Shown: piece by piece, positions 435 to 61,756 of the stretch
Layout of the letters: each line of letters starts with the position of its first letter
Position numbering within the stretch: the stretch's first letter is position 1
Virus record (IMG/VR): IMGVR_UViG_3300036715_002359
Location: 1-64,000 of that record
DNA length: 64,000 nt
Strand: one strand, 5' to 3'
From: a virus
Translations under genes and position numbers: made by a program
The notes under the pieces: generated by a model
The model's database searches: none
What the model was told of the DNA's origin: nothing
Seen by the model: the letters and a program-made list of their open reading frames with translations, nothing else

Positions 435-992
435 GTGGATTTACTCATAGAATCATTTGAAACGAATACTACCTCCATAAATTCCCCTAAATTATCAAGT
501 CCCGTGTTTGAACTTAAAAACAATTACTTCGTGGTAACTGATGGTACGATACATAATTATTACACCATCAAAGTACACCCTGATGCAGAAACGGATTCAC
601 TTATCAGGTTTGAAAGAAGTCCCCCAGTAATACTGGAAGGGCTCGCCATTATTAACAAGAGAATTTTTAAAGTCACAGTTGACGACTTGTTACGTAGAAT
701 TATAAGAAAATCCCGAGAAATTAAATTAGAGGTATTGAATGGAACAAGTAGCACAAGTAGCAAGTCCGTTGGTGACATCGGAACCACAGACATCACAATC
801 AGCACAGAAACTAGTTTTACAACTTCTCCCGCAACAACCATTCAAGGTATCGTCCAACAACGAGTTGAGCATAAAACTGAAATGGAAGAACACGCAGCTG
901 CTGACGCTGCTTGGCAGGAACAAATCGGAACACTACTCGGTCTTATATCTAAAGAAGAAGGGGACGAGTGGGAAATTACGGAAGCTACATAA
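435..992 (+). CDS. Hypothetical protein overlapping the RT 5' end by 254 nt
   Basis: 185-codon ORF in AT-rich DNA; GTG start preceded by AAGGA. Confidence 0.5.
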   Translation: MDLLIESFETNTTSINSPKLSSPVFELKNNYFVVTDGTIHNYYTIKVHPDAETDSLIRFERSPPVILEGLAIINKRIFKVTVDDLLRRIIRKSREIKLEVLNGTSSTSSKSVGDIGTTDITISTETSFTTSPATTIQGIVQQRVEHKTEMEEHAAADAAWQEQIGTLLGLISKEEGDEWEITEAT

Positions 993-1890
993 TCCTGATG
1001 GACTAATGAGAGTTGCTCAATACCGTATTCTAAAAGAAATTTTAGAGAAAATTGAAGTACCAGATTATGTTTGCGCTTTTGAAAAAGATCGTAACATTCC
1101 TGATATGGCAGCACTTCATGTTAACAAGAAAATTATTGTTAGTGTAGATCTTAAGGATTTTTTTACTAGCATTAAACAGTTTCATGTTAACCAAATCTTC
1201 GAACACTTGGGATTCGAATCGGCTCCGGCTAGAACCCTATCTGAACTTTGTACCTACGGATCTTTTGTTCCACAAGGTGCTCTGACCAGTCCTAAACTCA
1301 GCAATATTGTTACATCATTAACGTTCGGTCCTATTATAAAAGCGTTCTGTGAAGAACACGGTTATATTTTGACTATTTACGCAGATGACATTACAGTATC
1401 TAGCACAGAGAAAATGGATGGGTTAGAAGGTCGTCTTAAGGCTGGTGAAGTAGTAAACTTTATCAGAAAAACAGTAGGTTCCTACGGGTTCCAACTTAAT
1501 CCTAAGAAGATCAAAATTATGAAAAATCACATGCGTCAATACGTATGTGGTGCAGTTGTAAACTCTAAAGTAAATATGCAATTCTCTGAAAGGAATCGCT
1601 TACGAGCTATTGTTCATAACTGTTTGATGAATGGAATTGTTAAAGAAGCCGAGAAATTCGGTGTTCCCCCTGACAAATTCTCAGCCAAGATTATGGGACG
1701 CTTAAATTGGTTTAGCCAACTTAATCCCGTAGCTGGTGAAAAAGCTAAGACAAAGTTTAAAGAAGTCTGTGCGGATCAAATAATGTGCCCCACAGCCGAG
1801 ACTGAAAGCGTAAAAGATGCAGGATCGCTAGATGGTCTACCTATCACAGAACTACTGTTACCGGAAACGGAAACAAATGTACCATGGTAA
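739..1890 (+). CDS. Retron-type reverse transcriptase
   Basis: KK-G--R-L-NP N-terminus, region-X-like DMAALH, DLKDFF, PQGALTSP, catalytic YADD, region-Y-like VCGAVVN; GAGGT RBS. Confidence 0.93.
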   Translation: MEQVAQVASPLVTSEPQTSQSAQKLVLQLLPQQPFKVSSNNELSIKLKWKNTQLLTLLGRNKSEHYSVLYLKKKGTSGKLRKLHNPDGLMRVAQYRILKEILEKIEVPDYVCAFEKDRNIPDMAALHVNKKIIVSVDLKDFFTSIKQFHVNQIFEHLGFESAPARTLSELCTYGSFVPQGALTSPKLSNIVTSLTFGPIIKAFCEEHGYILTIYADDITVSSTEKMDGLEGRLKAGEVVNFIRKTVGSYGFQLNPKKIKIMKNHMRQYVCGAVVNSKVNMQFSERNRLRAIVHNCLMNGIVKEAEKFGVPPDKFSAKIMGRLNWFSQLNPVAGEKAKTKFKEVCADQIMCPTAETESVKDAGSLDGLPITELLLPETETNVPW

Positions 1891-6011: not shown

Positions 6012-6075
6012 TATAGTACGGGCAGACAATAATACATACTCCCGTATCCCAATAACTCCCCACAGGAGATTTACC

Positions 6076-7020
6076 ATGATTGTAGATACTCGTCGTAAAA
6101 CGTTACGGTGGAAAGATGACCAATGGATGTCGGTAGCTGAATGGCTTTTGAACAACCGTGCTTCCAAATGTGAAGTGTCCGGTCTGTTTGCCATTAAAGC
6201 TAAAGATATCATGGACGCTCAAGAAGCAATACTGACGTCAGAATACCATCGGACTGGAACTCCGATAATGGTGGACTTGCGTAAAAAACTGCAAGAATAC
6301 TTGGCAATACTGATTGAAATACGTGTTTCTGAACAATCGAAATTGACCGATCCGGTACAAGTTATCATTGACCAGGCGAAAGCTAATGATATTACTGCTC
6401 AGTTATTATCCCAGGTTTCGTCTGGGCAGCTGATGGATAAGCTGATCGATGTATTGGTCGATCGTCTGGTGGAACGTCTTGGTACCAAAATCAGTGACGA
6501 AGTCATTGATAGTTTGGCCATGATGAAAATGGGCGATCTTCCCACTCATTCACTTCCTTCAGTCATCCAGGGTTTGCCTAAAGACGAAGACGAAGACGAA
6601 GGTAACTCACTCTTCTTCGACTCTCGGCAGCCAGCATTGACTAATCATACTATTCCAAAAAGTACGGTTAGTTCAAAGTTGAAACACAACCCAGAAGTAG
6701 TTTCAGCTCCAAAAGTATTGAAGCCACGTATTGCGTTAATTGGCTTTACTCACAACGACTGGAATATTCTTCGCATCGAGTTTCCAATGTTCGAACTCCA
6801 ATACTTTAATGAAACTAGCAAGAATCTCCGTGCTTCGTTGAAGACGTTTGATTTCGGCCTGGGTGCCATCGGTCGTATGAATGGTGGTCTGCATCCTATC
6901 GCCAAAGATACTCTTGGCAAAAAGTACTTCCCTGCTGATGGTGCCGCATACACAATGCGTAACCAACTGAAATCTTGGGCTAAAGCCTTCGCAGAAGATC
7001 CAAGTTTCTTTCAAAAGTAA
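6076..7020 (+). CDS. Hypothetical protein
   Basis: 314-aa ORF; CCCACAGGAGAT RBS; terminator at ~7036-7066. Confidence 0.8.
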   Translation: MIVDTRRKTLRWKDDQWMSVAEWLLNNRASKCEVSGLFAIKAKDIMDAQEAILTSEYHRTGTPIMVDLRKKLQEYLAILIEIRVSEQSKLTDPVQVIIDQAKANDITAQLLSQVSSGQLMDKLIDVLVDRLVERLGTKISDEVIDSLAMMKMGDLPTHSLPSVIQGLPKDEDEDEGNSLFFDSRQPALTNHTIPKSTVSSKLKHNPEVVSAPKVLKPRIALIGFTHNDWNILRIEFPMFELQYFNETSKNLRASLKTFDFGLGAIGRMNGGLHPIAKDTLGKKYFPADGAAYTMRNQLKSWAKAFAEDPSFFQK

Positions 7021-8482: not shown

Positions 8483-8532
8483 AGAATTGGTATCAAATAA
8501 ATCTATAACCTACCTCCCCACAGGATAACATC

Positions 8533-9036
8533 ATGTCATTCTTTCGTGCTAGCCCTTTTAATTCTTCCAGACTACCAATGGGCCTTATGGCTGACGTGGT
8601 TTTGAAGAGTATTTTCAATTCCGACAAAAATGAAACTCTCTATACCAAAATGGTTTCTGAAGATGTAGTGTTTGCCATAATATTCCAAAATCTTTGTGAC
8701 CGTTATGGTTTTGAATGGGAATCATTGTTTCATCCTCTTCAATTACGTATGCAGTTTCTATACTCCCAGGCGGCTGGGGATGAAACTCACCTGATGCCAG
8801 TAAGTCCAGAACTGATTCGGATTCTTCTGAAAGAAATGAATCTGACTGAATTGGATTTGGTTAAAAACTGGGTAGCTTTTTCCAAAATTTTGAAATCGGA
8901 AGGTATCTCTATCGGTACCCCTCCAGATCAAAGTCCAAGAAATTTGCAACGCCTGAGTTTCAAAGACCTAAAAAGTGTCTATGATGAACGCAGGACAATA
9001 GTAGTTCAACCACAGGAGATTCACGCTCATGACTGA
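8533..9036 (+). CDS. Hypothetical protein
   Basis: CCCACAGGA RBS; first of three linked genes. Confidence 0.7.
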   Translation: MSFFRASPFNSSRLPMGLMADVVLKSIFNSDKNETLYTKMVSEDVVFAIIFQNLCDRYGFEWESLFHPLQLRMQFLYSQAAGDETHLMPVSPELIRILLKEMNLTELDLVKNWVAFSKILKSEGISIGTPPDQSPRNLQRLSFKDLKSVYDERRTIVVQPQEIHAHD

Positions 9037-9388
9037 AATTTTCGCTTCCGCTGACCACATCCTCGTAACTGCAATCAAACAGACTCGCCGCAGTTTGAAC
9101 TTCACAATCCTCGGCTTGTCACACGCAACAAAAATACCAGAATCGACATTGGCTGTTATCGAAGCTGGTGAAACCCGTAACTTTGATCCAGTTAAACTAG
9201 AACGTATTTCCCTTGCGTTCAACATGGAAACTAAGGCATTATTGGGCAAATCAATTGCATTCACCAAATACCTAGAAGAACTGGGTGTCCACATCGGTGT
9301 CGCAAAAGATCCAAAATGTGTTCAACTTGATGTCAATGATCTGGTGATGCTACACGAAAAGTACGCTGCTCACTCTCAACCGGCATAA
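9029..9388 (+). CDS. XRE-family helix-turn-helix protein
   Basis: IK--R------T---LS--T-I--S-L--IE-G pattern. Confidence 0.75.
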   Translation: MTEIFASADHILVTAIKQTRRSLNFTILGLSHATKIPESTLAVIEAGETRNFDPVKLERISLAFNMETKALLGKSIAFTKYLEELGVHIGVAKDPKCVQLDVNDLVMLHEKYAAHSQPA

Positions 9389-9442
9389 TAATAACGACCC
9401 GCTTTCATAGGGGTCGGATTCACTCACAGGAGATTTCTTAGT

Positions 9443-9865
9443 ATGGAAAACAAAAAAGTAATGCTGGACAACATCATTGGCACTGTTGTTCGGAAGATTC
9501 GTCAAAACAAAAATATGACTCATGAAGAATTATCCGAGAAAAGTAAATTGGCTATTGTGTTCATTCCGATGATAGAAGAAGGTCGCTTTGCAATGGATCG
9601 GGTTTCCTCTATCAAAGTAGCAGAAGGTCTCGGGCTGAGCTATCTCCAGTTTACCAATATTGTCGAACAATTCTCCATCTACTTTCAAGAAGAGGGTTTT
9701 GAAATTTTGCGACAACACTTGGTTCGTAATCCGATCACAGCTGAAACTGTGCATATGCATTTTTTCACTTTTCTACGGCATCTGTCAACTCGGGACACGT
9801 ATCCAGGTCTTTTGGCATTGAAAGCCATAGGCAAGATGGAAGAAGGATTTGCTTTAGCAGCATAA
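9443..9865 (+). CDS. XRE-family helix-turn-helix protein
   Basis: IG--VRKIR----MT-EELSEKS------I--IE-G pattern. Confidence 0.8.
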   Translation: MENKKVMLDNIIGTVVRKIRQNKNMTHEELSEKSKLAIVFIPMIEEGRFAMDRVSSIKVAEGLGLSYLQFTNIVEQFSIYFQEEGFEILRQHLVRNPITAETVHMHFFTFLRHLSTRDTYPGLLALKAIGKMEEGFALAA

Positions 9866-14282: not shown

Positions 14283-14461
14283 TATTTTCTACCTTTTTGT
14301 TTGTGTTGTTTAGAATTGTATTGACGATTAAAACTACGAACAGTTTCTACATGTCCGCTGATATCAGCGACTGTTCCTACTAAATCATCCCCCTGGGTAG
14401 ACACAACTCTATGAGCCATTCTGATCTTTCTATATGCTACTTTTTCTAAGTATTTGTTCAT
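14282..14461 (-). CDS. 59-aa protein starting MNKYLEKVA (not in ORF track)
   Basis: Coupled by ATGA and TAATG overlaps to both neighbours; carries the shared head-protein motif. Confidence 0.75.
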   Translation of the reverse strand: MNKYLEKVAYRKIRMAHRVVSTQGDDLVGTVADISGHVETVRSFNRQYNSKQHKQKGRK

Positions 14462-15360
14462 AGATACTGTATCGGGAAATCTGGTAAATTTTTTGTTACT
14501 AATTGGTTTTCTATATCGTTCTTACTTAGTTGTGTTAATTTTAAAACCTGTCTAACAGTATTTGTTTGAAGAACAGTAGGGGTCATACCCTCAACTCTAT
14601 ACACATCCCAAGTACCAGTTTGAACAACTATATCATCTGGACGAATCTCTGGCAATGAAATAGTCCAACCGGTTATTTGACTAGGTTCAAATACTCCAAA
14701 ATAGGTCTTTAGATTTGAGTTAGGGTTAGTATCATAATTGATGAAACAAGGTGCTCCATCAAAATACCCACCTTTAAATCCAGTACCTATGCAAGTAGAA
14801 CAATGATCTTTCATTATCTTCTCTAAACGATTATCCCAGCATTCCGGACATCTTTGTCCATAAGTTTTACGACGAAATATGTAAGATCTAGTTCCATTAA
14901 ATTTACTCAAGAGCACATATTCTCGACGTTGAATTTCTATACTACGTAACTCCACAAATCTATGTTGATCAGAAGACCAACTGGTTACTTTAGACTTGAT
15001 GGAGACATTACCTTTATCCAGTAAGATGGCTTCAATTACATAAAAGCCCCTATTGAACTTACGATATTCTTGAGTACCAGTATCTATTAAAAAAGTACCT
15101 GTTACTGGTTGTGAAGTTAATTTTTGGAAATCACCATCTTCTACCTGAGAGAAGTAAACATTAAATTCACAGTTTCCCCAATCAGCTGGAATAGCCCATT
15201 CGACAGATACCTGTTTATACCAACGGGGATAAATCTTAACCTGTATATTTTCTGAGAAATTATTAGTCGCCAAAAAGGCTGACGAACGATTTTCATCAGA
15301 GTGGTTGTACACAGAATTCTGTGACAGGAAACCAAAGTTAAGGGCGAAGTTAAATGACAT
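14458..15360 (-). CDS. Putative neck/head-closure protein with Zn-finger
   Basis: FN3-like N-terminus; C-P-E-C...C-S-T-C-GTG; C-terminal D-IV...Y-V pattern. Confidence 0.55.
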   Translation of the reverse strand: MSFNFALNFGFLSQNSVYNHSDENRSSAFLATNNFSENIQVKIYPRWYKQVSVEWAIPADWGNCEFNVYFSQVEDGDFQKLTSQPVTGTFLIDTGTQEYRKFNRGFYVIEAILLDKGNVSIKSKVTSWSSDQHRFVELRSIEIQRREYVLLSKFNGTRSYIFRRKTYGQRCPECWDNRLEKIMKDHCSTCIGTGFKGGYFDGAPCFINYDTNPNSNLKTYFGVFEPSQITGWTISLPEIRPDDIVVQTGTWDVYRVEGMTPTVLQTNTVRQVLKLTQLSKNDIENQLVTKNLPDFPIQYL

Positions 15361-15428
15361 GCTTTATTTTAGTGGTAATAAAAAATCCAGGACAAGCCTG
15401 GATTGAAGTTAAAGAAGAGTGGCTGATT

Positions 15429-15438
15429 TTGGTATAAG
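15429..15438 (+). promoter_or_regulatory. TTGGTATAAG promoter with no convincing downstream ORF
   Basis: Perfect motif followed by structured sequence and a terminator. Confidence 0.7.
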
Positions 15439-15444
15439 TATAGT

Positions 15445-15634
15445 ACTAAAGCACATAACAATTAACTTTACCAGGTCACCCCTGCTCACATTCGGTTTTC
15501 CCCTAGGTACAAAGTAGTCATTCATATTGTTTGTTGAAGTCCCAATCTTCAACAGACATCTCCTGTGGGAATGGCTAGTAATCTTTGTACTTTTCGACCG
15601 AGTGAGTGTGTGTTCCTCCTCGGTCTTTTTTTTT
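15445..15634 (+). ncRNA. Candidate phage small regulatory RNA (~190 nt)
   Basis: Own promoter; nested stems 15507-14/15583-90, 15515-23/15569-77, 15528-39/15547-58; terminator 15596-602/15619-25 plus T9. Confidence 0.7.
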
Positions 15635-15638
15635 GTAA

Positions 15639-16073
15639 TTACCAAATAGGAAAGTAAGCTGCATCTCCACCAAGCCCGCCCCAACCAGATTCCATATTCG
15701 TTTGAATTTTTAAAGCACGAGCTTGGGAATCAAAGTTAGCATGATACCCAGCGGCTAAATTTTTATATAACTCAAAGCGTTCTTCAATAGGAATTTGAAG
15801 GCCACCATCAGAATAGTTCATGGTATTACGAGCTAGAAGAGCTGCCTTGCCTTCATACATCTGCCATAAAGTACCCCATAATAAAATACTCTTAGAAGGA
15901 AAGTTATCAGGACTTAATCTCGAAACTGGGGTCATGTTATTGTAAACGTCAACTCCAAGTCCGATACACATTTTGATAAAAGTGTTAGTCATCTCCTCAC
16001 CATCGATGAGGTAATTGTTCGGAGTATAATCGCTTATGAATTCACGAACTTCGTCAACAGTGAGGATTGCCAT
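15639..16073 (-). CDS. Putative head-tail adaptor (neck) protein
   Basis: Helical adaptor-like pattern ending in YSDGGL; structural context. Confidence 0.5.
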   Translation of the reverse strand: MAILTVDEVREFISDYTPNNYLIDGEEMTNTFIKMCIGLGVDVYNNMTPVSRLSPDNFPSKSILLWGTLWQMYEGKAALLARNTMNYSDGGLQIPIEERFELYKNLAAGYHANFDSQARALKIQTNMESGWGGLGGDAAYFPIW

Positions 16074-16075
16074 AA

Positions 16076-16474
16076 TTATTTAGCTTTTTTAGATTTTGTT
16101 GCTGATGCTTCTGGGTCTTCTACGACTGGGGTTGAGTTAACACCTTGTTCACCTTGACCAAGAGCAGTACTAGTAGCTCCTGAACTTGGACTTACTTCGG
16201 GCTCAATCAATTTAGAAGCTTGTAGTTCATCAGCAGACATACCGGAGTAAGGAGTGGTTACTTCAATTTCTACTTCTGGAACAATTGTAGGAACACCCTC
16301 AGGTTTGATGTCAGTGATACGAGCCCAGTTTCGGCCAAGAGCCCATTCAATTGTTTGTTCGGTTTTATCATTTTCACTGATAGGAGCAAATCCTCCAGCT
16401 GGGATATCCATATATCCTGTTTTCAGTACTAGGTTAGTAGCTGTAAGATTTACGATGTAATTTTGAGTTGTCAT
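16076..16474 (-). CDS. Hypothetical virion-associated protein
   Basis: ORF in late operon. Confidence 0.65.
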   Translation of the reverse strand: MTTQNYIVNLTATNLVLKTGYMDIPAGGFAPISENDKTEQTIEWALGRNWARITDIKPEGVPTIVPEVEIEVTTPYSGMSADELQASKLIEPEVSPSSGATSTALGQGEQGVNSTPVVEDPEASATKSKKAK

Positions 16475-16518
16475 TTTATATTAAGGTTAGGTTAGATCCC
16501 AATTGGGAATACCTGAGT

Positions 16519-16848
16519 TTACTTCTTTTCGTATTGTTTGTCAATTCTAGCTAGGATTTTATTATCTTTATGTTGATGATACTTATGTAGTCCCAGGAAT
16601 CCAGCTGTGGTAGCTGTAGCAACGCCTAGACCTGTTTTAACTCTAGTTTGAGTTGAACGACCTCTAGCTACATTAGCAAGGCGATCAGTCTTAGTGAGAG
16701 CTCTTTGTTCAATACCTTTGACTCTCATTTCTTTAGCCAGGTGAACGCCATCAGTCATACTTTTTAATTTACGAGCAGAATGACCTATGAGTCTATCCCC
16801 ATATTTTTCAACTTTGGATAGAATTTGGTTAGAGGTAAAGATTGGCAT
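16519..16848 (-). CDS. Basic protein with Gly/Ala hydrophobic segment (internal head protein-like)
   Basis: Composition resembles the 23867-25500 proteins. Confidence 0.6.
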   Translation of the reverse strand: MPIFTSNQILSKVEKYGDRLIGHSARKLKSMTDGVHLAKEMRVKGIEQRALTKTDRLANVARGRSTQTRVKTGLGVATATTAGFLGLHKYHQHKDNKILARIDKQYEKK

Positions 16849-27010: not shown

Positions 27011-28477
27011 TTATTGATTCTTTATAATCTTAACCATAGCCGCTTTAGCCAGTTGGTATGTAAGTTTATAATCAGATGCTGACTTAACTAGAATTATTTT
27101 AACCGGTGAATTACCGTTAGTGTTTACAGATTCTTTCATTCTTGCTTCGATGGCACGAGTGATGTACCATTTTGCTGCAACTGCTGCACTACCTATTGAT
27201 AGTATAGTGTGGATTATTCTAATCAAACCTTCTTTACCTTCTGGTTGAAGGTTGACTGCTTTGAATCTTTCATAATTAGTTGGTTCGATATGAGGGCCGT
27301 TACCAATGTATCCAACGTTACTATATTCAGATGCTCTTTTTTCTACAAATTCTGGGAGTAAAGAACATTCAGGAATAGATGATTTTAAAGTTGTTGCAAT
27401 ATCAAAACTAGGATCATGTGAGGTATACTCTTCTTCAGAGAAGGTCATGTTTTTAGCACCGGTTTCGTGTACCACTGAGGCAACGAGCGAACCAATTCCT
27501 TCTGCACTTGGTCCCATAGTTTTACGGGCTATAAGTTCTGATAAAAAAGTAATAGAAGGACTAATTCCTAAATCTGCCATAGTGGCAAAGATTTCAGGTA
27601 ATTTGAAGTGTTGTAACATACCAATAACTTTTAAATCAGGATCTTTAACCTTATTTAACATAGGTTCAAGACTCTCTGAGTAATCAGCTATGTCTCCATC
27701 CACTTCTTTGATAAATTCTGATAATTTTTTAAACGCAGCTCGTTTTTCTCCATCAACGATTTCGTCTGCTGATGCAGCATCGACTGATCCAATGATTCTA
27801 CCGTTTTCACTTGCTACTTTTTGTAGCACTGAACTGGTAACATCAGCGGGACGAATGACAATACTCATATCGAAGAACTTAAGAGGAGCAACATTTAATG
27901 CCATAACCTTACGTCCATCAGGATAAACTTTACCTAAATTTTCACTTAGATGCTCACAATACTCTTGACGAGTATGAGCTTTGTTTCCACAGATCGAACA
28001 TACGTCATATGGTGTGCGGCAGGCCATCGAAGTAGCTGGAAAGTCTCCAGTTTCTATACGAGCAACAACGTCACTACCTTTGTCTTTATCAATCCATGCT
28101 ATGATTTCCACACGATGCATACGTTCGTTATAAATAGCGAAGATAACCTGACCAATAGCAATAGCTGGATTTTTGTTTATATGGTTACGGAATATATGAG
28201 CAGGACTAGTTTCAAAAGTTTTGTAACAATCAATTAGATTATGCTCTGGAAAATAATCGGCGTTACGATTAGCTCCATACCATTCACCAGCACCCATAGC
28301 CAAGATGTGTACATATACCTTGTTTGGTTCTGGTTTAATTTGTGATGTGAAATCACGAATGCGAATATCTGCAGACGCTTGTTTTAAAAGGCCTCTTGAG
28401 CTATTAAAATCCAAGATAGTAACTTGTGGTTCATCTTTGAAAATAGATGAATTATCTATAAGTTTAGTTAAGGCCAT
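27011..28477 (-). CDS. Putative prohead maturation protease
   Basis: N-N-D-F, F-NH, TSMAC (serine) and FFDMSIV-PAD pattern of HK97/herpes-type proteases; CxxC...CEH insert. Confidence 0.7.
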   Translation of the reverse strand: MALTKLIDNSSIFKDEPQVTILDFNSSRGLLKQASADIRIRDFTSQIKPEPNKVYVHILAMGAGEWYGANRNADYFPEHNLIDCYKTFETSPAHIFRNHINKNPAIAIGQVIFAIYNERMHRVEIIAWIDKDKGSDVVARIETGDFPATSMACRTPYDVCSICGNKAHTRQEYCEHLSENLGKVYPDGRKVMALNVAPLKFFDMSIVIRPADVTSSVLQKVASENGRIIGSVDAASADEIVDGEKRAAFKKLSEFIKEVDGDIADYSESLEPMLNKVKDPDLKVIGMLQHFKLPEIFATMADLGISPSITFLSELIARKTMGPSAEGIGSLVASVVHETGAKNMTFSEEEYTSHDPSFDIATTLKSSIPECSLLPEFVEKRASEYSNVGYIGNGPHIEPTNYERFKAVNLQPEGKEGLIRIIHTILSIGSAAVAAKWYITRAIEARMKESVNTNGNSPVKIILVKSASDYKLTYQLAKAAMVKIIKNQ

Positions 28478-28905
28478 TATCTTGTAGGGTTATTAAACTT
28501 TGGTCTAGTAACAGCCACAGGAGAAGGGGCCAGAGTAGAAGTACTCAAAGTTTTATTGATGTTGTTTAATGCAGTTAAGGACTTACGTTCTATATTAGAT
28601 TTATCTTCAGTAATTTTAGTAGCAGCTCTAGAATTATGATAATTAGCTAAGCCAAGGCCCAAACTAACTGAAGAGATCCCCACTCCTAGCTTTCCTGTTC
28701 TATCAAGATTCTTGCTCATAGCAATTTTCTCTAGGTATCTATTCACGCTTGCCCCTTTACTCATTTCTTGATACGGTCCGTCATCGCTTTGATTATATTT
28801 AAACTGTGAGTTTAAATTACCAGTAACGTCTGCGTTCGAACGAATTTCTTCAGCGTAAGAACCTAACGCTAATTTAGTAGAAGTTTCTGGTAGTTCTGTT
28901 TTCAT
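28477..28905 (-). CDS. Internal head protein with NRYLEKIA motif
   Basis: Shared motif plus a hydrophobic segment. Confidence 0.65.
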   Translation of the reverse strand: MKTELPETSTKLALGSYAEEIRSNADVTGNLNSQFKYNQSDDGPYQEMSKGASVNRYLEKIAMSKNLDRTGKLGVGISSVSLGLGLANYHNSRAATKITEDKSNIERKSLTALNNINKTLSTSTLAPSPVAVTRPKFNNPTR

Positions 28906-36770: not shown

Positions 36771-36862
36771 ATTTCAATTTTACACTATCGTAGACGTTTA
36801 TGGTATAAGTAAAGTGGGAGAAAACGTTGTATCCCGATTTTACAATCCACAGGAGAAGTAAC

Positions 36863-37018
36863 ATGACGGTAGATGAATTTAACAATCAGCCCAGGCCAAC
36901 TTTTGATCAACGAGTAAAATTTCCTATAAAACAGGAGATGATTCGTTCATCCAATGTTAAGCCTCGTCCATTTGTCCCGCAACTTATGACATTACTCGGT
37001 AATGCTCGAAGGGGATAA
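36863..37018 (+). CDS. Small hypothetical protein
   Basis: CCACAGGAGA RBS before ATG 36863; promoter variant 36800-36809. Confidence 0.6.
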   Translation: MTVDEFNNQPRPTFDQRVKFPIKQEMIRSSNVKPRPFVPQLMTLLGNARRG

Positions 37019-41778: not shown

Positions 41779-41845
41779 TAAGATGTGAGGATAATAAAAC
41801 AAACCCACAAATCCAACTCAATAATTCCACCACAGGAGTTTACAC

Positions 41846-42244
41846 ATGGAACTTACAGCATCCAATGTTCATACCGTTTTAGTCGATTGCTTGCGTCCAG
41901 GATTGACCAATGAAACAACTACCGTCGAAGGCATTATTAACAGCTTTCGATTTTCAGTTGACAAATTGAAGTACTATTCCAAAAGCATTAACAAAATGCT
42001 CGATCAACTCCCGTTTGAATTCCGTGAAGACAAAGGCGGTGGATGGTCATTTCTGCAAGCTGGCATTACAAACAAAGGTATTCAATGGGGAGACCAACGT
42101 GAGATGGAAATTCTCTTCGCTCTCGGCCTTGCCATTGGATCAGTCATCACTACTGTTCCAAGAAAAGAATGGAAAACCCTTCCTGGCGGCATGCCTTATT
42201 ATGCTGTTCTGAATGAAGAACACCGTCATCCAATTCCCGATTAA
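41846..42244 (+). CDS. Phage hypothetical protein
   Basis: EGI---F-F...GGGWSFL...QWG...LPGGMPY; CCACAGGAG RBS. Confidence 0.8.
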   Translation: MELTASNVHTVLVDCLRPGLTNETTTVEGIINSFRFSVDKLKYYSKSINKMLDQLPFEFREDKGGGWSFLQAGITNKGIQWGDQREMEILFALGLAIGSVITTVPRKEWKTLPGGMPYYAVLNEEHRHPIPD

Positions 42245-61355: not shown

Positions 61356-61492
61356 ATGGAAGTTAGAGTCTTTATTAAAATAATTACTTTCCTATTTTAA
61401 AGGAAATATATTCATAAGTCAATTCACCAAGTAAGTATTTGGTATAAGTAAAATATCGTGAGCAATTATGCTTACGTACCACAGGAGAAATC

Positions 61493-61756
61493 ATGTTCGA
61501 ACACAATGTCTTTATTAATCCCCCTGATGTAAAACAAAGAGTCAGAAAACACGATCTGGCAGTATTTAACAAGCGTATGGAAAAGCGAGCACTGCGGAAT
61601 AGCAAACATGCTCGTCGGGCTTGTCGCACTATGATGACTCGAATCCATATGGGTATTGCTCGTGAAGATTTATTCGCACATGACACTGGGGTGGTGGAAA
61701 AAATTCAGTCAGCAGCAAAAATACTCTGGTTAAATATCAAGGCAATATTTCAATAA
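61493..61756 (+). CDS. Hypothetical protein
   Basis: Promoter 61439-61448; CCACAGGAGA RBS. Confidence 0.7.
   Translation: MFEHNVFINPPDVKQRVRKHDLAVFNKRMEKRALRNSKHARRACRTMMTRIHMGIAREDLFAHDTGVVEKIQSAAKILWLNIKAIFQ

What the first reader, a model, noticed from the sequence alone, without database searches (positions are those of the whole stretch)
15429..15634. Structured phage sRNA carrying the antisense of an early-gene RBS motif
Seen: a perfect early promoter, no convincing ORF, a rod of three nested stems (15507-15590) and a terminator with T9. ATCTCCTGTGGG (15558-15569) is the exact reverse complement of CCCACAGGAGAT and matches 9-12 nt of the RBS of at least seven plus-strand genes. Its TCTCC core lies in the bulge between two stems, like an exposed seed. 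CTCAC..TCGGTT (15485-97) can also pair with GACCGAGTGAG (15596-606), competing with the terminator. Inference: a trans-acting multi-target translational repressor that times early-gene shut-off, i.e. a phage-encoded sRNA regulon. Alternatives are a 6S-like RNAP decoy or a trans template for the RT.
Basis: partly seen in the sequence, partly recalled or inferred. Interest (0 to 1): 0.85.

Follow-up and report, generated by a model that had tools for sequence, protein, structure and literature searches.

The report
Phage sRNA mirroring early-gene ribosome sites
A large uncultured phage carries a short gene for a non-coding RNA whose exposed stretch is the exact mirror of a private tag on the ribosome-binding sites of several of its own early genes, so one RNA probably damps translation of that gene set, though no transcript has been seen.

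Summary
At 15429-15634 (+) a full-consensus early promoter, a rod hairpin and a hairpin+T9 terminator sit between two minus-strand structural genes, with no credible ORF. The 12-mer at 15558-15569 is the exact complement of the tag CCCACAGGAGAT, and 9-12 nt of that tag precede seven plus-strand starts.

The same promoter-RNA-terminator cassette lies at the same site in four related phage records (G001, G002, G003, G008). Distant relatives have the two genes adjacent.

In three of four independent lineages the RNA carries the complement of that phage's own tag:
- G000: CCCACAGGAG tag, CUCCUGUGGG in the RNA.
- G001/G002: CCACCCAGG tag, CCUGGGUGG in the RNA.
- G008: CCUACCAAGG tag, CCCUGGUAGG in the RNA.

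Cognate pairs score 4-5 kcal/mol better than swapped ones. G003 shows no such match. Support in G001 and G008 is statistically modest.

Best reading (about 0.55): a trans-acting anti-RBS sRNA with a regulon of early genes. Repression and timing are inferred, and no RNA data exist. The 6S-like and RT-template readings are not supported.

The scan's notes list similar candidates in at least eight other phage genomes; I did not check them. In print, the closest are P1/P7 c4 RNA and the start-associated sequences of Cluster K mycobacteriophages.

The parts
15429..15445 (+). Early-class promoter motif TTGGTATAAGTATAGTA. Presumed start near 15445.
   Evidence: Matches 16 of 16 conserved positions of the 19-copy consensus. 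All 8 exact 12-mer copies are on the + strand. The motif is strand-specific in relatives too: G001 1 forward/29 reverse, G003 14/0, G004 0/31, G006 16/0, G008 11/1.
15445..15634 (+). Predicted non-coding RNA of about 190 nt.
   Evidence: Fold z = -4.75. No credible ORF. No Rfam family. Syntenic cassettes in G001, G002, G003 and G008.
15470..15482 (+). Conserved 5' element ACCAGGTCACCCC, role unknown.
   Evidence: G001/G002 have ACCAGGTCATCCCC and G003 has TCCAGGCAAACCC. There is no complementary site elsewhere in the window.
15485..15497 (+). 5' arm of the alternative (anti-terminator) helix. It pairs with 15596-15606.
   Evidence: The full-length MFE uses it: -55.9 against -53.9 kcal/mol with the terminator forced. 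Not seen in the MFE folds of G001-G003 or G008.
15505..15592 (+). Rod hairpin in three helical segments. Apical loop UCCCAAU at 15540-15546.
15558..15569 (+). Seed AUCUCCUGUGGG, the exact complement of the RBS tag. UCUCCU (15559-15564) is a 6-nt internal loop.
   Evidence: exact match. (unpaired probability about 0.9). (opening cost 0.12 kcal/mol for the 6-mer, 1.35 for 9 nt, 7.4 for 12 nt). The best duplexes of 6 early TIRs all centre on RNA positions 110-130.
15596..15634 (+). Intrinsic terminator: stem GACCGAG...CUCGGUC with a CU-rich 3' arm (UUCCUCCUC), then T9.
   Evidence: -15.9 kcal/mol when folded alone. Equivalent terminators with T6-T8 are present in all relatives with the cassette.
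15384..15404 (-). Minus-strand terminator-like hairpin plus T6. It ends the upstream late operon after it has read through the antisense of the RNA gene. TAAAATA and the ATG of the 300-aa gene follow.
   Evidence: The same layout is seen in G001/G002.
14458..15360 (-). Flanking 300-aa gene, a homologue of Salmonella phage Arash gp234 'structural protein'.
15639..16073 (-). Flanking 144-aa gene, a homologue of Arash gp233 'structural protein'.
6059..6070 (+). RBS tag, 12 of 12 nt, before the ATG at 6076 (314 aa, unknown function).
   Evidence: -23.9 kcal/mol.
8517..8528 (+). RBS tag, 9 contiguous nt, before the ATG at 8533 (167 aa).
   Evidence: -19.1 kcal/mol.
9009..9020 (+). RBS tag, 11 contiguous nt, before the ATG at 9029 (119-aa HTH protein).
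   Evidence: -22.2 kcal/mol.
9423..9434 (+). RBS tag, 10 contiguous nt, before the ATG at 9443 (140 aa; HTH_19 hit of 24.3 bits, below the curated cut-off of 30.2).
   Evidence: -23.1 kcal/mol.
36846..36857 (+). RBS tag, 10 contiguous nt, before the ATG at 36863 (51 aa).
41829..41840 (+). RBS tag, 9 contiguous nt, before the ATG at 41846 (132 aa, phrog_26039).
   Evidence: -18.4 kcal/mol.
61478..61489 (+). RBS tag, 10 contiguous nt, before the ATG at 61493 (87 aa).
   Evidence: -23.2 kcal/mol.

Best explanation
A phage gene for a trans-acting small RNA of about 190 nt. It is transcribed from a full-consensus early promoter and ended by an intrinsic terminator. The gene was inserted, on the opposite strand, between two virion structural genes.

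The RNA's internal loop UCUCCU, extended by GUGGG, is proposed to pair with a private tag (CCCAC fused to the Shine-Dalgarno AGGAGAU) on the ribosome-binding sites of at least seven early genes. Pairing would cover the SD and lower their translation.

Shown here: the anatomy, the synteny, the lack of coding capacity, the complementarity, its restriction to plus-strand genes, and lineage-specific co-variation of RNA and tag.

Inferred: that the RNA is made, that it pairs in vivo, that the effect is repression, and any role in timing.
For: 1. Anatomy and statistics of the unit.

2. Synteny. The same promoter-RNA-terminator cassette, on the strand opposite to homologues of the 144-aa and 300-aa genes, is in G001, G002 and G003. 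In G008 it lies upstream of the 300-aa homologue. L009 shows only the terminator tail. In more distant relatives (L010, L014, L016, L019, L021 and phage Arash; likewise L012, L027 and L033, with only a terminator-like hairpin between) the two genes are adjacent.

3. Non-coding. G001's RNA has no ATG. Among the five RNAs, every ORF longer than 23 codons runs past the terminator, and none is conserved. Minus-strand ORFs fall in different frames in G000 and G001 (read).

4. One site, many targets.
- The six best of 15 promoter-proximal TIRs all pair at RNA positions 110-130.
- The top-5 mean duplex energy is -25.4 kcal/mol against -18.5 for dinucleotide shuffles (0 of 200 as good). Against natural genome segments the null is -17.6 (2 of 250 as good).
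- Against the five tag-bearing TIRs, 0 of 600 natural segments do as well.

5. Strand specificity. The seed region reaches -15 kcal/mol or better on 7 of 45 plus-strand gene TIRs and 0 of 43 minus-strand ones (Mann-Whitney P = 0.0013). SD-like 4-mers precede 26 of 45 plus-strand and 12 of 43 minus-strand genes.

6. Co-variation.
- G001/G002 tag (TAA)CCACCCAGG(AG) against RNA CCCUGGGUGGGUU. All five tag TIRs pair at RNA positions 67-83, and 8 of 600 natural segments do as well.
- G008 tag CCUACCAAGG against a hairpin GUCCCUGGUAGGAC with loop CUGGUA. The three best of 7 TIRs all pair there (P = 0.032 for the top 3, 0.024 for the mean, 500 segments). This test was run after the hypothesis was fixed.
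- Swap test: cognate -19.5 and -18.3 kcal/mol against non-cognate -14.6 and -13.7.

7. Co-occurrence. The CCAC/CACCC+SD composite is present in 5 of 15 (G000), 5 of 27 (G001) and 2 of 8 (G002) early TIRs. It is present in 0 of 12 (G003) and 0 of 30 (G004, a complete genome without the cassette at this site).

8. The CCCAC part of the tag has no pairing partner in the usual 16S anti-SD tail (recalled knowledge). The RNA offers one.
Against: - No RNA evidence of any kind. No RNA run is listed and no contig covers the RNA body.
- G003 has the cassette but no complementarity: top-5 mean -18.8 against -18.4 for shuffles, with 65 of 200 shuffles as good. Its early genes use a different tag, TTAGGAGAT.
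- G001 support is modest. All-TIR test against natural segments: P = 0.068. Perfect-k-mer counts are not significant: k = 8 gives 3 of 27, P = 0.32. For G000 the same test gives P = 0.048 at k = 8 and P = 0.007 at k = 9.
- G001's seed sits inside a hairpin and costs 7.8-8.1 kcal/mol to open.
- I wrote the regular expression that defines 'tag-bearing' TIRs after seeing the data.
- MAFFT did not align the seeds of G000 and G001 with each other. Their positional homology is my inference.
- Tag-bearing genes of G000 have no detectable homologues downstream of the tag-bearing promoters of G001: 0 hits for 8 proteins at E <= 1e-3.
- The RNA shares its promoter class with its targets, which does not by itself give a delay.
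- Only four independent lineages are available.
Confidence: 0.55

Rival explanations
1. The RNA is made, but its main job is in cis. It is perfectly complementary to the 3' untranslated tail of the late minus-strand operon that ends at the 15384-15404 terminator. In this phage it can also read through its own terminator into the antisense of three structural genes (15639-16848). It would therefore silence or process late messages early in infection, or be mopped up by them late.
For: The gene lies between the stop of the 144-aa gene and the minus-strand terminator in G000 and G001/G002. The anti-terminator fold is slightly favoured in G000. Virulent phages are reported to make antisense RNAs with defined starts, some over structural genes (PMC10914365, passages read).
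Against: This does not explain the exact complement of a tag used by distant plus-strand genes, or its co-variation in three lineages. The anti-terminator is not seen in the MFE folds of G001-G003 or G008. G003 and G008 show no minus-strand terminator hairpin between the cassette and the 300-aa gene (read by eye). In G008 the 144-aa gene is elsewhere. The RNA body diverges fast, which a pure antisense role would allow but does not predict.
Confidence: 0.15
2. A decayed or neutral early cassette. The site is a hotspot where early promoter-terminator modules land. This one lost its ORF, and the anti-tag is a leftover (for example an inverted piece of an early leader) without function.
For: The same site holds an early protein-coding gene in G009 and a small minus-strand gene in L004-L007/L011. 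G008's RNA begins with an early-leader-like AAGGAGTTTTAA but has no properly spaced start. G003's RNA has an SD-like GGGAG plus ATG with an ORF that runs past the terminator.
Against: Promoter and terminator are kept at full strength in lineages whose flanking proteins are only 56-75% identical. The RNAs fold better than shuffles: z = -4.75, -5.21 and -2.17. A relic would not track lineage-specific tag changes.
Confidence: 0.12
3. It is a trans-acting sRNA, but its main targets are host messages, reached through the conserved 5' element ACCAGGUCAYCCC or the C-rich loops. Pairing with phage leaders would be secondary.
For: The 5' element is the only body sequence shared by G000, G001/G002 and (loosely) G003. 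It has no complementary site in the window. Conserved 5' seeds are typical of bacterial sRNAs (recalled).
Against: The host is unknown, so no target can be named. G008's RNA lacks the element. This reading does not explain the tag co-variation.
Confidence: 0.1
4. The motif on the minus strand is a genuine RBS for a small minus-strand peptide: TTG at 15552 giving 47 codons, or ATG at 15559 giving 13 codons. The plus-strand RNA might then be its antisense partner, as in type I toxin-antitoxin pairs.
For: The tag is followed 7 nt later by an in-frame TTG.
Against: G001 has no start codon after the motif (read). G008's motif is followed by an unrelated 14-codon frame (read). The reading frames across the conserved stretches differ between G000 and G001. 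In the ATG-started gene set, 0 of 43 minus-strand TIRs reach -15 kcal/mol.
Confidence: 0.05
5. A 6S-like RNA polymerase decoy, or a template/primer RNA for the phage reverse transcriptase.
For: The full-length G000 fold is a long rod with internal loops. An RT gene lies at 739-1890. RT and cassette co-occur in G000-G003.
Against: No Rfam 6S or retron-type match at E <= 10. G001's RNA is three to four separate hairpins, not a rod. The RT is 12-14 kb away and is also present in 5 of 5 relatives without the cassette at this site.
Confidence: 0.03

Closest known systems
c4 antisense RNA of phages P1 and P7 (review PMC12197685, passages read)
   Same: A phage-encoded structured RNA. Per the review, its complementary sequences are likely positioned in loops, and they pair with complementary stretches around a ribosome-binding site on phage mRNA to block translation. 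Specificity differs between related phages (heteroimmunity).
   Different: c4 acts on one operon (ant). From recall, it is processed from the same transcript as its target. Here the unit has its own promoter and terminator, lies in the structural region, and matches at least seven dispersed early genes. No Rfam C4 match. The phage here shows no sign of being temperate in what I examined.
C-rich anti-Shine-Dalgarno sRNAs of Staphylococcus aureus, e.g. RsaA (PMC3961350, abstract seen)
   Same: A stand-alone sRNA with a C/U-rich unpaired motif that forms an imperfect duplex with the SD of target mRNAs and represses translation. Several targets per RNA.
   Different: These are bacterial, not phage, and there is no private tag beyond the SD. 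Here the seed extends into a phage-specific CCCAC element and co-varies with it.
Start-associated sequences (SAS/ESAS) of Cluster K mycobacteriophages (PMC3203893, section 15 passages read)
   Same: A 13-bp asymmetric tag containing AGGAG sits 3-7 bp upstream of the starts of a subset of non-structural genes. It occurs in one orientation, is often attached to genes of different families, and four genomes have a single copy on the opposite strand. The authors left open whether an RNA or a protein binds it.
   Different: Different sequence (GGGATAGGAGCCC) and a different phage group. No partner RNA was proposed for the opposite-strand copy in the passages I read. Here the opposite-strand copy lies inside a promoter-terminator RNA unit.
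Non-coding and antisense RNAs of virulent Pseudomonas phages (PAK_P3, phiKZ and others; PMC10914365, passages read)
   Same: Virulent and giant phages make small RNAs and antisense RNAs with defined starts, some opposite structural genes.
   Different: Those are experimentally detected transcripts whose regulatory roles the authors leave to further functional study. This one is a predicted transcript with a specific predicted target set.

Membership tests
Rfam C4 (P1/P7 c4 antisense RNA) | Match to the curated covariance model | tested here: not met
   No family reached gathering score in the whole window. Over 15380-15660 at E <= 10 there were only three chance-level hits (mir-BART16, MIR398, U4).
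Rfam C4 (P1/P7 c4 antisense RNA) | Unpaired segments complementary to sequences around the RBS of phage mRNA | tested here: met
   The loop UCUCCU plus GUGGG is complementary to 9-12 nt of seven RBS tags. This is computational only.
Rfam C4 (P1/P7 c4 antisense RNA) | Encoded in, and processed from, the same operon as its single target (recalled, not from a call) | tested here: not met
   The unit has its own promoter and terminator. Its targets are dispersed over 6-61 kb of the window.
Trans-acting base-pairing sRNA (general class) | Stand-alone unit: promoter, no ORF, intrinsic terminator | tested here: met
   The start site is assumed.
Trans-acting base-pairing sRNA (general class) | Accessible seed with several complementary mRNA targets at translation start regions | tested here: met
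   Opening cost is 0.12 kcal/mol for the 6-nt loop. 7 of 45 plus-strand TIRs reach -15 kcal/mol or better, against 0 of 43 minus-strand TIRs.
Trans-acting base-pairing sRNA (general class) | Seed and targets conserved or co-varying in relatives | tested here: inconclusive
   Positive in G001/G002 (8 of 600) and G008 (P = 0.03), and in the swap test. Negative in G003.
Trans-acting base-pairing sRNA (general class) | Transcript detected; regulation shown with compensatory mutations | not testable with these tools
   No RNA run is listed.
6S RNA | Match to the Rfam 6S models; conserved rod with a central bubble | tested here: not met
   No 6S hit at E <= 10. G001's homologue folds into separate hairpins.
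Retron msr-msd / RT-associated template RNA | Lies next to its RT; flanking inverted repeats conserved | tested here: not met
   The RT is at 739-1890, 14 kb away. The flanking pairing 15485-97 x 15596-606 is seen only in G000. The RT is present in 5 of 5 relatives lacking the cassette at this site.
Type I toxin-antitoxin | Conserved small (often hydrophobic) ORF opposite the antisense RNA | tested here: not met
   The minus-strand frames differ between G000, G001 and G008, and there is no start after the motif in G001 (read).
Start-associated sequences (Cluster K mycobacteriophages) | Asymmetric SD-containing tag just upstream of the starts of a subset of non-structural genes, one orientation | tested here: met
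   This is an analogue only: the SAS consensus sequence itself is absent.

The most novel reading that the evidence does not exclude
The RNA and the RBS tag form a private, co-evolving translational address code of this phage clade. One early RNA gates a whole class of leaders. Because each lineage's RNA fits its own tag 4-5 kcal/mol better than a relative's, the pair may also act as a specificity determinant between co-infecting relatives, in the manner of P1/P7 heteroimmunity. The near-isoenergetic terminator/anti-terminator of G000 could additionally couple target pairing to read-through antisense transcription over structural genes.
Probability: 0.15. Interest if true: 0.8.

Novelty: new variant of a known kind. 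Interest (0 to 1): 0.62.

Why it matters
Conserved tags at the translation starts of phage non-structural genes have been known since 2011 without a known partner (PMC3203893). Virulent phages also make many small RNAs of unknown role (PMC10914365). A stand-alone phage RNA that mirrors such a tag and changes with it would link the two observations. It would also give a simple RNA-based way for a large phage to control a whole gene class, independent of host factors. The idea is directly testable with reporters carrying compensatory mutations. In my literature searches (and the passages of the review PMC12197685) I found no multi-target anti-RBS sRNA of a virulent phage acting on its own early genes.

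Tried and rejected
Searches that found nothing useful
- DNA searches of the phage collection with the region and with 8 kb around it: no match.
- Rfam at gathering score and at E <= 10: nothing meaningful.
- ARAGORN on the window: 0 genes.
- Sequencing runs: no RNA holder is listed. Three DNA holders were found (shares 0.35, 0.07, 0.06). Laying their contigs gave no piece over 15111-15591 and no useful variant. I draw nothing from this on expression or habitat.
- Genome-contig scan: one distant hit at 49% identity.
- Metagenome scan: 14 loci. The closest (L009, 85%) ends inside the terminator.
- Pattern scan for promoter plus 5' element: only G001-G003 plus one chance hit inside a coding region of an unrelated contig (L091).
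- Search of our own findings by sequence: nothing.

Tests that were too noisy or negative
- Longest-perfect-complement counts over 112-nt leaders were too noisy because of AT-rich 8-mers. With natural-segment nulls they were non-significant for G001.
- Orthology of targets between G000 and G001: none found. One of the nine queries was a mis-set frame with stops and counts for nothing.

Rows dropped before the counts
- Promoters without a detectable start were dropped: G001 L037 and L082, G003 L039; G004 L119; G008 L136:13137 and L138.
- Two identical G008 TIR windows were collapsed, 8 to 7.
- The G000 TIR set holds only the 15 promoter-proximal genes behind TTGGTATA[AG][GT]. It therefore omits the tag-bearing genes at 9029, 9443 and 36863, which is conservative.
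- The gene sets use ATG starts and ORFs of 60 aa or more only.

Readings rejected (reasons under rivals): 6S-like decoy, RT template, type I toxin-antitoxin, minus-strand peptide, CsrA-sponge (the RNA carries the antisense, not the GGA sense motif).
Full report
CONTEXT. The window is the first 64 kb of a 73.5-kb virus record (G000; CheckV completeness 42%). Related records are 145-185 kb. The nearest cultured relatives found are Salmonella phage Arash and three Vibrio phages, at about 45% identity for the 144-aa protein. The finding lies in a 278-nt gap between two minus-strand genes, 15639-16073 (144 aa) and 14458-15360 (300 aa). Their Arash homologues, gp233 and gp234, are annotated 'structural protein' and lie 3 nt apart.

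THE OBSERVATION.
- Promoter. TTGGTATAAGTA at 15429 is one of 8 exact copies in the window, all on the + strand. With up to 2 mismatches there are 26 matches against 11.2 expected. Across the 19 genome copies, the copy at 15430 matches 16 of 16 well-conserved positions, as do only 3 others. Every other copy is followed by an SD and a start codon.
- Fold. The + strand folds far better than shuffles: -56.4 kcal/mol, z = -4.75, reached by 0 of 200 shuffles. The minus strand gives z = -2.87. The rod spans 15505-15592.
- Terminator. It is 15596-15625 plus T9.
- Anti-tag. AUCUCCUGUGGG (15558-15569) is the exact complement of CCCACAGGAGAT. Seven plus-strand genes carry 9-12 contiguous nt of that tag 4-8 nt before their ATG. 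UCUCCU is a 6-nt internal loop that costs 0.12 kcal/mol to open; the full 12-mer costs 7.4.
- Alternative helix. The pairing 15485-97 x 15596-606 competes with the terminator and is slightly favoured: -55.9 against -53.9 kcal/mol.
- Other checks. No ORF is credible. No Rfam family matches.

RELATIVES. Searching with the flanking proteins found the same arrangement in G003 (L002), G001 (L025, a complete 184,920-nt genome) and G002 (L036, whose RNA is nearly identical to G001's). In each, a promoter TTGGTATAAG(T/A)A(T/A)AGTA, a structured body of 154-186 nt and a terminator with T7-T8 lie on the strand opposite the two structural genes. L009 (85% identical protein) ends inside the terminator. 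The bodies are barely alignable. Only a 5' element, ACCAGGTCAYCCC, and the terminator region are shared.

In more distant relatives the two genes are adjacent, in some with only a terminator-like hairpin between them, or a small minus-strand gene sits between them. In G009 an early protein-coding gene occupies the site. The site is therefore an insertion hotspot, and the cassette is a lineage-specific insertion. G008 has a further promoter, 138-nt RNA and terminator directly upstream of its 300-aa homologue.

CODING CAPACITY. G001's RNA has no ATG, and its longest frame is a 17-codon GTG ORF. In G000, G003 and G008 every ORF longer than 15 codons runs past the terminator, and no two ORFs are related. 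The conserved stretches fall in different minus-strand frames in G000 and G001 (read). The unit is best read as a non-coding RNA gene.

DOES THE RNA MATCH THE EARLY LEADERS MORE THAN CHANCE? For G000:
- The six best duplexes among 15 promoter-proximal TIRs all use RNA positions 110-130.
- The top-5 mean energy beats 200 of 200 dinucleotide shuffles and 248 of 250 natural 190-nt segments of the genome.
- Against the five tag-bearing TIRs, no natural segment of 600 does as well.
- Perfect-k-mer counts are weaker: k = 9 gives 4 of 15, P = 0.007; k = 8 gives P = 0.048.
- The seed region reaches -15 kcal/mol or better on 7 of 45 plus-strand and 0 of 43 minus-strand gene TIRs (P = 0.0013). This fits the lower SD usage of minus-strand genes, 12 of 43 against 26 of 45.

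CO-VARIATION. G001's early leaders carry a different composite, (TAA)CCACCCAGG(AG), in 5 of 27 TIRs. Its RNA contains CCCUGGGUGGGUU, and all five tag TIRs pair at RNA positions 67-83.
- The motif-restricted test gives 8 of 600 natural segments as good.
- The unrestricted test gives P = 0.068, and 1 of 200 against shuffles.
- k-mer counts are not significant.

G008 was examined after the hypothesis was fixed. Its leaders carry CCTACCAAGGAG or CTGCCAGGAA, and its RNA has a hairpin GUCCCUGGUAGGAC with loop CUGGUA. The three best of 7 unique TIRs all pair there (P = 0.032 and 0.024 against 500 natural segments).

In the swap test, cognate pairs score -19.5 and -18.3 kcal/mol and non-cognate pairs -14.6 and -13.7.

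Read side by side, the seeds are CCUG-UGGG, CCUGGGUGGG and CCUGGUAGG, against tags CCCA-CAGG, CCCACCCAGG and CCUACCA(A)GG. The changes are matched on both sides. This reading is mine; MAFFT did not align these positions.

The composite tag is absent from G003 (0 of 12) and from the complete genome G004 (0 of 30), which has no cassette at this site.

RESULTS AGAINST THE READING.
- G003 keeps the cassette, but its RNA matches neither its own leaders (65 of 200 shuffles as good) nor the tags of G000 or G001 (-9.8 and -11.5 kcal/mol).
- G001's seed is buried in a hairpin, costing 7.8-8.1 kcal/mol to open. Its CUCC tetraloop and ACCUCCC terminator loop are open, at 3.2 and 0.0 kcal/mol.
- Tagged genes are not homologous between G000 and G001.
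- No RNA data exist.
- The RNA uses the same promoter class as its targets.

OTHER READINGS. The RT (739-1890) occurs in all eight relatives tested, including 5 of 5 without the cassette at this site. It is therefore a clade-wide gene with no specific link to the RNA. A 6S-like role lacks any model match and any conserved rod. A cis-antisense role remains possible, because in G000 and G001/G002 the RNA gene lies inside the 3' tail of the late operon upstream of a minus-strand terminator, but this does not explain the tag. A decayed cassette does not explain retention of a full-strength promoter and terminator, or the co-variation.

COMPARISON WITH WHAT IS KNOWN. By mechanism the closest is c4 RNA of P1/P7, whose complementary sequences (likely in loops) pair around an RBS (review PMC12197685, passages). 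Next are the C-rich anti-SD sRNAs such as RsaA (PMC3961350, abstract). For the tag, the closest is the SAS of Cluster K mycobacteriophages: an SD-containing 13-mer before non-structural genes, with a single opposite-strand copy in four genomes and no known partner (PMC3203893, section 15 passages). The RNA is a member of none of these families by sequence.

The scan's own notes list the same kind of candidate in at least eight other phage genomes. I did not check those and do not count them as evidence.

VERDICT. A non-coding RNA gene is very likely. A trans-acting anti-RBS role over a set of early genes is the best-supported mechanism (about 0.55), with repression and timing unproven. It is a new variant of a known kind.

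Noticed in passing
L133 (G008), reverse strand, about 950-1100 of the locus: A second, sequence-unrelated promoter, 138-nt RNA and terminator sit upstream of the 300-aa homologue. The RNA begins with an early-leader-like AAGGAGTTTTAA but has no properly spaced start. Its hairpin loop CUGGUA matches G008's own leader tag.
   Followed up: yes
L132 (G009), upstream of the 300-aa homologue: The same intergenic site holds an early promoter driving a protein-coding gene. In L004-L007/L011 it holds a small minus-strand gene. The site is an insertion hotspot.
   Followed up: partly
L124 (G004:C1:172248-172479, reverse strand): An early promoter is followed by about 130 nt without an ORF and a terminator (CCGGGG...CCCCGG plus T8). 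The stretch contains CUUGGUAG, the complement of the G008-type tag core. An ATG follows 14 nt later. It could be a leader/attenuator or another small RNA.
   Followed up: no
L039 (G003:C1:253 onward): A full early promoter with no start codon opening a frame within 110 nt. Possibly another non-coding unit.
   Followed up: no
L122 (G004), L082 and L037 (G001), L119 (G004): Early promoters also precede tRNA-like sequence. ARAGORN calls a tRNA-Leu(taa) in L122 only (1 of 4). L082 carries a GGTTCGAATCC T-arm-like motif (L119 a looser GGTTCGATTC) but is not called.
   Followed up: partly
window 739-1890 and relatives G001-G008: A reverse transcriptase (RVT_1) is present in all 9 records examined, including the window's own. 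It is a clade-wide gene, about 12-14 kb from the RNA cassette where both are present.
   Followed up: partly
whole G000 record: SD-like 4-mers precede 26 of 45 plus-strand genes but only 12 of 43 minus-strand genes. Many minus-strand genes are instead preceded by A-rich TAAAATA-like sequence just upstream of the ATG.
   Followed up: partly
window 28514-28525 (+): A 10-nt tag copy (CCACAGGAGA) lies on the + strand inside the minus-strand ORF 28477-28905, with no nearby start. It may be chance or part of an unannotated antisense transcript.
   Followed up: no
window 9029-9388 and 9443-9865: Two adjacent tag-bearing genes give HTH_19 hits: 30.6 bits (above the 30.2 cut-off) and 24.3 bits (below it). 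They are candidate early regulators that would fall under the RNA's control.
   Followed up: partly
window 15384-15404 (-) and 15367-15373: A minus-strand terminator hairpin is followed by TAAAATA and the ATG of the 300-aa gene. In L012, L027 and L033, which lack the cassette, the same terminator-plus-TAAAATA arrangement directly follows the 144-aa gene.
   Followed up: partly
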